A stretch of DNA of 64,000 nucleotides from the human T2T-CHM13v2.0 reference genome, Homo sapiens, in assembly GCF_009914755.1 (NCBI RefSeq), contig NC_060930.1. One strand, written 5' to 3'. Positions 15,580 to 24,769 of this stretch are shown in pieces (the stretch's first letter is position 1; the number at the start of each line of letters is the position of its first letter). The notes under the pieces were generated by a model, which saw nothing but the letters and a program-made list of their open reading frames with translations, searched no databases and was not told where the DNA came from. Made by a program: the position numbers and the translations under genes.

Positions 15580-16093
15580 CTGAAATATATTTAACCAACA
15601 GTAAGAAAACTACCATTAAAATGAAAAGAATTGGTCACTATTATTACAATAATTTTAAGATAAAAGCATACATCCTAATGAAGTGAAGATTAAGTAAAAC
15701 AAGCATTGTACAGTAATAAAATTTATGAATATTCATGAAAAGTGCCAGATTAATAGCCTTGAAAAATAAAGTATTCTATCCACAGACCAAACACAATTCA
15801 GGAAATAAAAGAATACCAACTCCCCCACCCATAGAATTCTGCTTCATGTTTTAAACTCAGATTTAACACATAATTATGTCTTACACTCCATCTATCTCCG
15901 TTCAATCATGCCCTTTCTGCAAAAGCTGACATGTAGCAACTGTACGGATTTTTTGGTAATTCTTGGAAGTAGTAGCCAGAGATCATTGCTCAAATGACAC
16001 TAGATTTTATTATTTTTGGTAATAAATTCCCTGGTAGTCTGACTCGTCTTTTAAATGGTGAATTTCAAAGGTTAAAGAAAAGGTTTTTTTTAC

Positions 16094-16255
16094 CTGATAA
16101 TTGTTTTCTGTTTTCCAGTTCCATTAATCCAGAACGAATGGGTTTCCTCCCTGCAACCTGTCAATCAAACAGAGGTGGCCAATCACCACTCTGAATTTTT
16201 TGCTCTCAGTGCTTCTTCAGACTATGTTCCAGTTGAAAACTTCTTTAGCAGTGTT
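16094..16255 (-). other. Candidate 162-nt poison (NMD) cassette exon in intron 15
   Basis: Acceptor tttttacctctttcag, donor TATCAG|gtaaaa; in phase 0 reads NTAKEVFNWNIV* with TGA at 16219-16217. Confidence 0.5.
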
Positions 16256-21774: not shown

Positions 21775-21870
21775 AGGAAGAAAGAAGGAAGGAAAGAAGG
21801 GAGGAAGGGAGGGAGGGAGAAAGGGAGGGTTGGGTGAGGGAGAAAAGAAAAGAAAGAGAAAGAGAGAGAC
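21775..21870. repeat. Purine-rich (GGAA/GGGA/GA)n low-complexity tract
   Basis: ggaagaaagaaggaaggaaagaagggaggaagggagggaggg...gagagagac. Confidence 0.9.
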
Positions 21871-24769
21871 TCTTCTCCTGATTAATAAGAGATAACACAA
21901 TATGAGCTGTACCTATTTTGAGCTTCTCTTTCTCCCTTTCCTAGATACATACAGCTACAATTATCTAAAACTAAAGTACAGGTCACACTGAGAACATGTT
22001 AACATCAGAAGAAGTATGCATGTACAAAAATTCTGGGTGGTAGATTGGCAGCCTCTGCTCGTTTGGAACGTTGCAAGGAGAAATATATTGTTCTGGATTA
22101 GTGGACACTGGAACTTTTTTTTTTTAAAAAAATCTCTTAAGTAAAAGAAAGGTTAAGAGAACAATTATAAAAATAAGGAAAACTTTAATCAAATAAAAAC
22201 TTATTTGGAATTTACCCATGAAACAACAAAAGTAAAGCAAAAATCAAATTCAGTAAAACTGCTTTCTATTAAGAGACATACTATACTCTTTGATTAAAAT
22301 GAAAACCAGACAGGAGGCAACAAACTACAGCTTTGAGTAATGACAGAAATAGAAAGATATGGAAAGAGAGATAGAGACACAGCTAGGGCTATAGAGAAAA
22401 GAAAGAGTAAGAGAAATAAAGCAAAACCGCCAGAAACATGAGGAAAGCTACTAAAAACATGGGGTCTACAAATTCAACTCCAAGCATCTCTTATTTACTA
22501 TTTAATATTCAAATGGCCTAGTACTAAGAAATGTGAAAAGTCTCTATCTTTTCAAATTAATTTAATATTCATTTAGTTAAACTCGTAGTTAAAACTTAGC
22601 TGTCCGGTGCTAATTTAATGGGGAATAAAAGACCATAAAACAATTTATATTTAGGAACATTTAAGGTTATAATTAACTTCTAAACCTGGCGACCTCTTTC
22701 ACAGAAGGCCCTCAGCTTCAGTCCTGAGAGTTGCACACATTTTCAAGCTATTTCTGGGAATTATTTATCTGCCTTTTAGCATTTAATGGGAGTATAGAGC
22801 CTTTAGAGTTTAGAACAACTCTCATCAAAACAAAGCTATTCTGATGTTTACCTCCTGCCAATGCCAAACAAAAGTGGGCTTACTAAGTTATACCCAACTA
22901 TTATAGTTTGGAATATTCTTAATATACACTACTTGCTTCAGTAAAATATCCAAATATATACTACATTTCCTCTGAATACTCAAGTTATGTAAGGACTGTT
23001 CAGTTGATTCGTAAAGAAATAAAAGTACTGAAGGCCTAGAATGTAGTTTGTTTGTTTTTAAAGAATAAAGTTGTCTCATAATATTTTCTACAAAATTCTC
23101 TTTGGTTTCTTCTCCTGTTCACTTAAAAAAGAAAAACAACAACAACAAAAAGAACCACAAAGGCTTTCCCAATAAGTGCTTTTAAAAGTTTTTAGTTAAA
23201 GATGAGACAACAGAAAGGGTAGGGGGAGTACAAGCTACATATACTGTCTATTCCATTTCATGCCCTATGTTAGCCTCTTTTAAAACATCATCTCACGTGT
23301 CATATACTTCTTATAAGTAACAAAAACAAACCCAGCACCCACTCCCCAACTGCTTTTATCATTGAGATCCTCTATTAGGAGGAAAGTTAGCAGTAAAAAC
23401 AAGAAAAATAAACCCCTCAGTTTCTCTGGAGAATACTACTTGAAAGTTGAGAATCCATTTATAAGATTTCAGAATGAAGTAAATTATTTAAACATAAAAG
23501 AACTAAATAGCTTTATCTCAATTCCCAATCTCAAACTCTTTAATTTGCTGACAAATTTAGATGGTCCCAAAATAAAGCACAAGAAATTTTTAAAAGTATA
23601 AGTCATGGCTTGATACAGAAAAAAATTAGAATACTTATTACAATGATGACTATCAGTGCAATATTAAAATATTAATGTTTTATAATCTTATATTTAAAAA
23701 TTATTAAAATGTAATTACTATGTATCAAACAGGCATTTGAAAGTTCACCTTTTCACTTGAAAGGCTTTTTAACATAACAGGATTTTTGGCTATTTCTAAA
23801 ATTTCAAAAAAAGAATTTACATTTCCATAATTACACAAAAAATGCAGTAAAATGCTGATGAATACAAAATACTAAATTATATGTTACATGATTTCCATTA
23901 TCTTTTGCAAAGGTATAAATTTCCAATGGAAAATTCAATTATTATTCAAAAAGCAGGAGAAATATTAAAGTATTCTTAAAATATACTTGATAAAAACCAG
24001 TATTTAAGAAATTTGTACTAAAACTGTTATTCTAAAGGTATAGTCTACATTCCTTATTTTCTAGCTGTAGGTGGAATGGTGAGTTTACTTATCTGTTTTA
24101 TAAACTTCAGTTTTAACAGTCACATGAAATATTATTTAATCTTAAAAATACTTCACATAACTTTCACCATTTCTAGTCAAAAAAGGAGTATTCCACCAGA
24201 ATTCTTCATCCTCTAATAGACCAAAGCACTATATATGACTAGACCCTTCACATGGTGCTCAAAAAATATTTACTAAACTGAACTTGTGATTACTACTACA
24301 ACTTAACATTAGGGATTAAATTTGTATGCAATCAAGTATCGTGGTATTTTAGTAACTGAAAAACTTATTGATTAGCTACAGAGAGCCAAATAGCTATAAT
24401 TATAGCCAAAACTCAACATTCATGATAGCAAGCAGTGAGAACGCAGGCCCTCCCTCGAATTGTTTCTCTTTATTTTCTTAATAGCAATGCTGGATGCTTT
24501 ATCTTCCATTTGCCCATAAATAAAACAAGCAATGAAAAGAACAAAAGAGTGAAGAGCAAAAAGAATTAGGGCAATTAGATAACTCATAAAAGACAGACAG
24601 GAAAAAAAATCAAGTTAAAGAGTAAGATGTCAAAAGATCCACTCGGATTTATTACCATTATGAAAACATTTCTTCATGGACATATCACTAACTGAGTATT
24701 GTTAAAAGTTAGCTATGCAGTAACATTGACAAAAGCTCAAAAAGCCAACCATGACAAGATTTGAGTACA

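What the first reader, a model, noticed from the sequence alone, without database searches (positions are those of the whole stretch)
16090..22114. Fossil DIRS-type retrotransposon with its terminal architecture preserved across ~6 kb of PHIP intron 15
Seen: four non-Alu blocks are mutually complementary. (A) 16113-16248 and (D) 21971-22113 form a ~130-bp inverted repeat. Its first 90 columns align by hand at about 79% and share TTCCAGT, TAATCCAGAAC, TGCAAC, CAGAGG, GCCAATC, ACCAC and GAATTTTT. (B) 16385-16427 is the inverse of 16090-16134. (C) 16441-16470 contains gttccggtatccactgatctagaacaa, which matches the reverse complement of 22088-22114 at 23/27. On the minus strand the order is ITR, ~5.5 kb, bipartite internal complementary region, then ITR with an extension ending ...AATTATCAGGTAA. 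Established: this is the layout of DIRS1-group tyrosine-recombinase retrotransposons, which have no active mammalian members; MER135/MER126 are, as I recall, the human relics. Subtracting the later Alu and L2 leaves about 4.7 kb, a normal DIRS length. Inference: the interior has decayed beyond recognition while the pairing segments survive, which suggests selection on the pairing itself.
Basis: partly seen in the sequence, partly recalled or inferred. Interest (0 to 1): 0.88.

Follow-up and report, generated by a model that had tools for sequence, protein, structure and literature searches.

The report
DIRS-type retrotransposon relic in PHIP intron
A 6-kb stretch of a human PHIP intron still carries the full set of end repeats and the internal "circle-junction" copy typical of DIRS tyrosine-recombinase retrotransposons, a class thought to have left only protein scraps in mammals, but no trace of its genes could be found.

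Summary
Blocks A and D are a 125-144 nt inverted repeat, 79% identical over the best 90 columns. None of 200 dinucleotide shuffles reached its score. Blocks B and C are the best matches in the whole 64-kb window to the right and left termini, and they abut at 16443|16444.

Read on the minus strand (PHIP sense), 22114 to about 16074 shows this order: left ITR starting GTT, interior, lICR, rICR, a 136-nt spacer, right ITR, and a right extension that pairs only with rICR. Total size, ITR, extension and ICR lengths, the GTT/AAC junction and an 11-mer shared by all four blocks fit published vertebrate DIRS1-like elements.

The coding hallmark is missing. Six-frame Pfam scans found no RT, RNase H or recombinase, although the same method found a Tigger-type transposase elsewhere in the window. 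No other copy of the repeats turned up in the T2T genome.

All three repeat pairs are 77-85% identical, about as similar as Tigger copies are to each other. That clashes with the blank interior. Either a non-coding DIRS-type element inserted in a eutherian ancestor, or an ancient element's pairing blocks are under selection. I could not decide this without other species. The MER135/MER126 link and the L2 claim are unsupported.

The parts
21971..22114 (-). Left inverted terminal repeat (block D). The element starts GTT at 22114 on the minus strand.
   Evidence: 79% to block A; 0 of 200 shuffles reach its score.
16479..21970 (-). Interior with no detectable coding remains. It holds a later Alu (19673-19934, + strand) and a GA-rich simple repeat (21772-21875).
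   Evidence: 0 of 63 ORFs hit RT, RNase H or recombinase families; 0 Pfam families in 6 of 6 read-through frames; outside the Alu and the simple repeat, only the locus itself matches in the genome. GC 30-33%, like the flanks.
16444..16478 (-). Left half of the internal complementary region (lICR, block C). It is complementary to the first 27-35 nt of the left terminus.
   Evidence: 23 of 27; best non-training hit of the A+D model in the window, model positions 2-35, E 0.047..
16385..16443 (-). Right half of the internal complementary region (rICR, block B). It is complementary to the right extension plus the outer part of the right ITR, and it abuts lICR at 16443|16444.
   Evidence: 77% over 61; best non-self hit in the window for both the right terminus and the extension alone.
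16249..16384 (-). Spacer between rICR and the right ITR.
   Evidence: no similarity to the sequence just inside block D (398 of 500 shuffles score as high or higher).
16113..16248 (-). Right inverted terminal repeat (block A). Similarity is supported to about 16236-16241.
16074..16112 (-). Right extension (rE). It lies outside the ITR and pairs only with rICR. The exact end is uncertain by about 3 nt.
   Evidence: best hit in the window is 16443-16416, 24 of 28. There is no counterpart beyond block D, where a T run follows 22114.

Best explanation
Window 16074-22114 (T2T chr6:80,182,074-80,188,114), read on the minus strand, is the dead relic of a single insertion of a DIRS1-type tyrosine-recombinase retrotransposon or a non-coding derivative of one.

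**Shown here**
- The full cis-acting architecture is present: left ITR, a bipartite ICR near the 3' end, right ITR and right extension.
- The two ICR halves are the reverse complement of the joined right and left ends, that is, of the circle junction.

**Inferred from the published DIRS-1 model** (PMC7192593, PMC3266345)
- A sub-genomic transcript was reverse transcribed.
- The cDNA ends annealed to the ICR, which served as the template to rebuild and join the termini.
- The recombinase then integrated the circle at a matching trinucleotide (here GTT/AAC) without a target-site duplication.

**Present state**
- Nothing suggests current activity. No reverse transcriptase, RNase H or recombinase remains are detectable, and it is the only copy found in the genome.

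**Why the repeats are about 79% alike while the interior is blank: unresolved**
- Given DIRS origin, I put about 45% on neutral decay since a eutherian-age insertion of an element that was already non-coding and was mobilised in trans.
- About 40% on an ancient (pre-mammalian) element whose four pairing blocks are under selection.
- About 15% on something in between.
For: **Repeats and their placement**
- A-D inverted repeat: 63.5 bits, with 0 of 200 shuffles reaching that score.
- In the whole window, the best matches to the right terminus, to the extension alone and to the left terminus fall at 16385-16443 and 16444-16470/78, directly abutting.
- An 11-mer, TAATCCAGAAC, is present in A and D, with 10 of 11 in B and 9 of 11 in C. 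Piednoel et al. report a stretch of at least 10 nt shared by both ITRs and both ICRs.

**Measurements against the seven vertebrate rows of Table 3 in PMC3266345**
- Total 6.04 kb, or 5.78 kb without the Alu, against 5322-6196.
- ITR 125-144 nt against 122-169 (divergent plus conserved parts).
- Right extension about 37-39 nt against 26-34.
- ICR about 27-35 / 59-62 nt against 36-46 / 56-65.
- Start GTT with junction AAC, as in the three fish elements.

**Other support**
- No target-site duplication is visible, as expected for DIRS.
- No other copy of the ITR core or terminus exists in the genome, which argues against two insertions of an interspersed repeat.
- The equivalent paralogue introns are 1,056 bp (BRWD3) and 4,878 bp (BRWD1) and lack the blocks. 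PHIP's intron minus the element is about 5.2 kb.
Against: **The coding hallmark is absent**
- 0 of 63 stop-to-stop ORFs of at least 35 aa hit RT, RNase H or integrase families. Three further ORFs lying inside the Alu were left out. Nine of the 63 had single weak, unrelated hits below cut-off.
- 0 Pfam families in 6 of 6 read-through frames.
- The same method found DDE_1 at E 4e-11 in a Tigger-type fossil in this window.

**Other points against**
- Only one copy is found in human.
- The right-end trinucleotide cannot be read as GTT.
- A 136-nt spacer separates rICR from the right ITR. In Xenopus families the ICR and ITR slightly overlap.
- The right extension is a little longer than in the vertebrate rows, and lICR a little shorter.
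- No comparison with any DIRS consensus was possible.
- The literature I read reports no DIRS copies in 37 mammals, and only pre-amniote DIRS protein fossils in human.
Confidence: 0.7

Rival explanations
1. This is an ancient (pre-mammalian) DIRS whose interior has decayed completely, while the four pairing blocks are kept by purifying selection on pairing, for example a long-range duplex in PHIP pre-mRNA.
For: - It explains the blank interior.
- It fits the literature, in which human DIRS fossils are pre-amniote and mammals lack DIRS copies.
- The blocks are GC-richer than the interior and flanks (38-41% against 30-33%). They hold 5 CpG in 411 nt, against 17 in 5,232 nt of interior.
- The predicted A-D duplex is about -120 kcal/mol.
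Against: - All three pairs show the same 77-85% identity, as a single neutral clock would give.
- Transitions to transversions are 19:11, and 21% of positions are mismatched.
- G-U-compatible mismatches number 7 in the PHIP-sense RNA against 12 in the antisense RNA.
- The CCGG site survives in 2 of its 4 copies.
- Keeping a DIRS-typical length through more than 300 My of indels would be a coincidence.
Confidence: 0.28
2. Two neighbouring cut-and-paste elements of one DNA-transposon family: a roughly 370-bp MITE (A..B) lying next to a roughly 5.7-kb relative (C..D) with similar terminal inverted repeats.
For: - The pattern A-> <-B C-> <-D is what two adjacent elements with terminal inverted repeats would give.
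- The window does hold eutherian-age DNA transposons.
Against: - The shared 25-nt motif would be terminal in C..D but lie about 39 nt inside the ends of A..B.
- The inner flanks of B and C are unrelated, while A and D share about 130 nt.
- No target-site duplications are visible.
- No transposase is found.
- No other family member is found in 3.1 Gb.
- The exact abutment of B and C would be chance.
Confidence: 0.1
3. Not a mobile element. Local replication template switching or serial inverted duplications copied short pieces of the intron in reverse.
For: - The structure is single-copy.
- The interior is compositionally like the surrounding intron.
Against: - It needs at least three independent events.
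- Their end points would have to coincide with the ends of the A-D repeat, and two of the products would have to land head to head.
- It does not explain the fit to DIRS dimensions.
Confidence: 0.07
4. A and D are two independent copies of an old, possibly conserved interspersed repeat such as the MER families the reader named, and B and C are chance.
For: Pattern searches cannot see copies more than about 15% away from the pattern, so an old family is not excluded.
Against: - B and C are the top hits in the window for the termini, and they abut.
- There is no enrichment of the terminal motif in the genome: 4 hits against 35 for the reversed control.
- MER135 and MER126 are not described as DIRS in what I read.
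Confidence: 0.05

Closest known systems
Vertebrate DIRS1-like retrotransposons (GaDIRS1/2, TnDIRS1a, AcDIRS1/2, XtDIRS2/3; Piednoel et al. 2011, PMC3266345 Table 3)
   Same: - Inverted terminal repeats of about 120-170 nt.
- A bipartite ICR near the 3' end whose halves complement the left start and the right end.
- A right extension that pairs only with rICR.
- A motif of at least 10 nt shared by all four repeats.
- GTT start with AAC junction, as in the fish elements.
- Total length of 5.3-6.2 kb and no target-site duplication.
   Different: - No GAG, RT/RNase H/methyltransferase or recombinase remains.
- Single copy, in a mammalian host.
- A 136-nt spacer between rICR and the right ITR.
- The right-end trinucleotide is unreadable.
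- The extension is slightly longer and lICR slightly shorter.
- Sequence similarity to these elements could not be tested.
Human DIRS/Ngaro protein fossils (Yao & Frith 2021 preprint; Frith 2022, PMC9004415)
   Same: Relics of tyrosine-recombinase retrotransposons in the human genome.
   Different: - Those are short protein-coding fragments: 20 sites in the preprint, then 5 tetrapod-age fossils tabulated individually plus 37 other pre-amniote ones.
- The passages I read describe no terminal architecture.
- Here the architecture survives and the protein signal does not.
Dictyostelium DIRS-1 (Cappello model; Malicki et al. 2020, PMC7192593)
   Same: [quoted passage not shown]
- The ICR lies near the right repeat.
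   Different: - DIRS-1 has terminal repeats of about 300 bp and is 4.8 kb long.
- It is coding and experimentally mobile.
- Its ICR adjoins the right repeat.

Membership tests
DIRS1-like retrotransposons | Imperfect inverted terminal repeats at both ends | tested here: met
   A against D: 79% over 90 columns, extending to 125-144 nt. 0 of 200 shuffles reach the score.
DIRS1-like retrotransposons | Short ICR at the 3' end of the interior. [quoted passage not shown] | tested here: met
   On the minus strand, 16478-16444 complements the left start and 16443-16385 complements the right end.
DIRS1-like retrotransposons | The two ICR halves meet at a 3-bp circular junction that complements the terminal trinucleotides | tested here: inconclusive
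   The halves abut at 16443|16444. The left terminus starts GTT, and AAC sits at the junction. The right terminus is too decayed to read its last three bases.
DIRS1-like retrotransposons | A terminal extension complementary only to its ICR half | tested here: met
   The best hit in the window for 16074-16112 is 16443-16416, 24 of 28. There is no counterpart outside block D.
DIRS1-like retrotransposons | A stretch of at least 10 nt conserved in both ITRs and both ICRs | tested here: met
   TAATCCAGAAC: 11/11 in A, 11/11 in D, 10/11 in B and 9/11 in C.
DIRS1-like retrotransposons | No target-site duplication | tested here: inconclusive
   None is visible at about 16074 or 22114, but decay could hide a short one.
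DIRS1-like retrotransposons | Encodes GAG, RT/RNase H (and methyltransferase) and a tyrosine recombinase | tested here: not met
   0 of 63 ORFs and 0 of 6 read-through frames hit any such Pfam family. The positive control worked. This test has limited power for very old fossils.
DIRS1-like retrotransposons | Sequence similarity to a described DIRS family (Repbase/Dfam) | not testable with these tools
   No repeat library or vertebrate genomes were available.
Cut-and-paste DNA transposon / MITE | Terminal inverted repeats at the very ends, flanked by target-site duplications, with a transposase or related copies elsewhere | tested here: not met
   The shared motif is subterminal in A..B. No duplications are visible. 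There is no transposase and no other copies.

The most novel reading that the evidence does not exclude
DIRS-type retrotransposition was still occurring in the eutherian stem lineage, at about the time Tigger DNA transposons were active. It inserted a 5.8-kb non-coding element, mobilised in trans, into PHIP. Tyrosine-recombinase retrotransposons would then have died out in mammals far later than the pre-amniote date implied by the known protein fossils.
Probability: 0.3. Interest if true: 0.85.

Novelty: new variant of a known kind. Interest (0 to 1): 0.6.

Why it matters
Mammals are the textbook case of a lineage without DIRS elements. What is known in human is two domesticated genes and a few dozen short protein fossils that predate amniotes.

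A locus that keeps the whole replication architecture (ITRs, bipartite ICR, extension) gives a within-element clock, because all repeat pairs were near-identical at insertion. It also gives a direct, testable question:
- Either the element is of eutherian age, which would move the extinction of tyrosine-recombinase retrotransposons in our lineage by more than 200 million years.
- Or four non-coding pairing blocks have been held for that long inside a gene linked to neurodevelopmental disease, which would point to a structural RNA or DNA role.

A multi-species alignment of one intron would settle it.

Tried and rejected
**Genome-wide searches**
- A DNA search with blocks A-C found only the locus itself. 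The tool also missed block D, so it cannot see 79% identity over 90 nt.
- The one extra hit to the terminus, chr16:12,235,617 (23 of 25), shows no further similarity and no DIRS-like layout in 20 kb. I treat it as chance or unexplained.
- Pfam Phage_integrase and Dam gave no match in the genome.
- RT_RNaseH_2 listed 150 matches from 2,250 candidates. I did not examine them, so it gave no lead to DIRS fossils.
The model was run only on the window and the paralogue introns.

**Local searches**
- Rfam over the region gave only Alu-related, sub-threshold hits.
- The intron searched against the whole window found no repeat family shared with the interior.
- The BRWD1 and BRWD3 equivalent introns showed only Alu matches.
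- The spacer against the inside of block D showed no similarity.

- Testing for L2 or MIR in the interior.
- Any check of conservation in other species.
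Full report
**What is in the sequence**

- A 16113-16200 is the inverse of D 22113-22026: 78.9% over 90 columns, 63.5 bits, E 8e-12.
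- 16076-16134 is the inverse of 16443-16385 (B): 77.0% over 61 columns, 38.3 bits.
- C 16444-16470 is the inverse of 22114-22088: 23 of 27, 31.9 bits.

Global and MAFFT alignments carry the A-D repeat on to about 16236-16241 and 21971, so the arms are 125-144 nt.

In 200 dinucleotide-preserving shuffles of the region, the best inverted self-match averaged 31.6 bits (sd 4.2, max 46.4).
- None reached 63.5 bits.
- 16 of 200 reached 38.3 bits and 89 of 200 reached 31.9 bits.

So A-D is far beyond chance, while B and C are not significant by score alone.

**Why B and C are nevertheless real**

Their weight comes from position. I searched the whole 64-kb window on both strands.
- The right terminus 16074-16134 has its best non-self match at 16443-16385 (E 1.7e-5).
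- The 39 nt outside the A-D repeat (16074-16112), searched alone, have their best match at 16443-16416 (24 of 28).
- The left terminus 22080-22114 has its best matches at block A and at 16470-16444 (E 3e-4 each).

A sequence-only model built from A and D has its best non-training hit in the window at 16445-16478 (E 0.047; the next hit has E 0.27; 63 hits listed at E up to 10).

The best partners of the two different termini therefore lie head to head and touch at 16443|16444. Read together, B plus C is the reverse complement of the junction that would form if 16074-22114 were closed into a circle.

**Anatomy on the minus strand (PHIP sense)**

1. Left ITR, 22114 to 21971, starting GTT.
2. Interior, 21970 to 16479.
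3. lICR, 16478 to 16444.
4. rICR, 16443 to 16385.
5. Spacer, 16384 to 16249.
6. Right ITR, 16248 to 16113.
7. Right extension, 16112 to about 16074.

A four-way alignment shows the 11-mer TAATCCAGAAC in A and D, 10 of 11 in B and 9 of 11 in C. No target-site duplication is visible at the ends. The spacer has no counterpart inside D (398 of 500 shuffles score as high or higher).

**Comparison with what defines DIRS1-like elements**

The published definitions I read:
- Goubert et al. 2022 (PMC8969392, passage) describe imperfect ITRs plus a short ICR at the 3' end of the interior. [quoted passage not shown] There are no target-site duplications.
- Piednoel et al. 2011 (PMC3266345, passages and Table 3) add three features: a right extension complementary only to rICR, a 3-bp circular junction complementary to the terminal NTT, and a stretch of at least 10 nt conserved in both ITRs and both ICRs.

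Their seven vertebrate elements compare with this locus as follows.

| Feature | Vertebrate elements (Table 3) | This locus |
|---|---|---|
| Total length | 5322-6196 bp | 6.04 kb; 5.78 kb without the 262-bp Alu |
| ITR (divergent + conserved parts) | 122-169 nt | 125-144 nt |
| Right extension | 26-34 nt | about 37-39 nt |
| ICR halves | 36-46 and 56-65 nt | about 27-35 and 59-62 nt |
| Start / junction | GTT/AAC in the three fish elements | GTT start, AAC at the junction |

Malicki et al. 2020 (PMC7192593, passages) give 33 + 55 nt for the DIRS-1 ICR. They show experimentally that it is essential for retrotransposition.

The differences are the 136-nt spacer (in Xenopus families the ICR and ITR slightly overlap; PMC9210276, passage), a slightly long extension, a slightly short lICR, and a right-end trinucleotide too decayed to read.

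**The missing genes**

- Of 66 stop-to-stop ORFs of at least 35 aa in 16000-22200, I scanned 63 and left out three that lie inside the Alu.
- None hit a reverse transcriptase, RNase H or integrase/recombinase family. Nine had one weak unrelated hit each, all under the curated cut-offs.
- All six frames read through with X at stops gave no Pfam family at all.
- As a control, the same procedure on 43501-46200 found DDE_1 (PF03184) at E 4.2e-11 in one of three frames. This is a Tigger/pogo-type transposase fossil.

The defining coding content of a DIRS retrotransposon was therefore tested and not met. For that reason I describe the locus as having DIRS-type architecture rather than file it as an ordinary member.

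**Copy number**

In the 3.1-Gb T2T genome:
- The 25-nt terminus with up to 3 mismatches hits itself and one chr16 site (reversed control: 1 hit).
- The degenerate form with up to 2 mismatches hits C, D and the same chr16 site (control 0).
- Two forms of the ITR core (27 specified bases, up to 3 mismatches) hit only D and only A respectively (controls 0).
- An 18-base terminal motif with up to 1 mismatch gives 4 hits against 35 for the control.

The chr16 site shares nothing beyond 26 nt and has no similar layout in 20 kb.

The interior outside the Alu and a GA-rich simple repeat matches only itself. That tool is weak for short or old repeats, although it did find the Tigger family at 70-83% identity.

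The equivalent introns of BRWD3 (1,056 bp) and BRWD1 (4,878 bp) lack the blocks.

**The unresolved paradox**

At insertion, all DIRS repeat pairs are near-identical. Here they are 79%, 77% and 85% identical.

Several features look like neutral decay:
- Transitions to transversions are 19:11.
- The CCGG site survives in two of its four copies.
- There is no excess of G-U-compatible mismatches in the PHIP-sense RNA (7 against 12).

This level of similarity is about what copies of the Tigger-type family in this window show to each other: long matches are 74-80% identical. That family's transposase is still detectable.

A DIRS of that age should show glaring RT remains, and it shows none. Two readings remain.
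- **Younger, non-coding element.** The element was already non-coding when it inserted in a eutherian ancestor and was mobilised in trans. [quoted passage not shown]
- **Ancient element under selection.** This is what the literature on human DIRS fossils would predict, with the four blocks held by selection. The blocks are GC-richer (38-41% against 30-33%) and CpG-richer than the interior, which fits constraint but also fits original composition.

I rate the two about even. No tool here gives other vertebrate genomes, so I cannot decide between them.

**Literature**

- Kojima 2018 (PMC5753468, passages) lists MER135 as unclassified and MER126 as an unclassified DNA transposon. It says human has no DIRS repeats apart from LAP2alpha and ZNF451.
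- Yao & Frith 2021 (bioRxiv 10.1101/2021.01.25.428050, passages) report DIRS protein fossils at 20 human sites.
- Frith 2022 (PMC9004415, passages) tabulates five tetrapod-age DIRS fossils individually and a further 37 pre-amniote ones.
- In searches I found no paper describing a DIRS ITR/ICR structure in a mammal.

**Verdict**

- The DIRS-type reading is well supported by structure (confidence 0.7), but the coding test failed and no family comparison was possible.
- The selection inference, the MER135/MER126 link and the L2 claim are not supported by anything I could test.

Noticed in passing
window about 44300-45500 (minus strand) and window 4690-5871: A Tigger/pogo-type DNA transposon fossil with a recognisable DDE_1 transposase domain (E 4.2e-11). 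The genome search returned 4,699 candidates, and the long matches are 74-80% identical. One of them is a second copy inside this window.
   Followed up: partly
window 16420-16429 and 16090-16103: The splice donor of the predicted lncRNA LOC124901346 exon 1 (CAG|GTAAGA at 16423|16424) lies inside rICR. Its mirror image, on the PHIP-sense strand, lies in the right extension. The DIRS-type repeat therefore supplies a 5' splice-site-like motif on both strands.
   Followed up: no
L003 1500-1525 (T2T chr16:12,235,616-12,235,641): A 26-nt match (24 of 26) to the left terminus of the element, ending at the same GGAAC. There is no further similarity and no DIRS-like layout within 20 kb. It is either chance or an isolated remnant.
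   Followed up: yes
window 19673-19934: A + strand Alu inside the element carries a 35-nt internal tandem duplication (19798-19867, 94%). It gives sub-threshold Rfam hits to mir-1268, mir-3135 and SRP RNA.
   Followed up: no
L009 (chrX) and L010 (chr21): The intron equivalent to PHIP intron 15 is 1,056 bp in BRWD3 and 4,878 bp in BRWD1, against 11,225 bp in PHIP. Without the 6.04-kb element, PHIP's intron would be about 5.2 kb.
   Followed up: yes
window 22115-22133: Directly outside the left terminus lies a run of 12 T followed by 7 A (+ strand), a short palindromic homopolymer pair at the insertion boundary.
   Followed up: no
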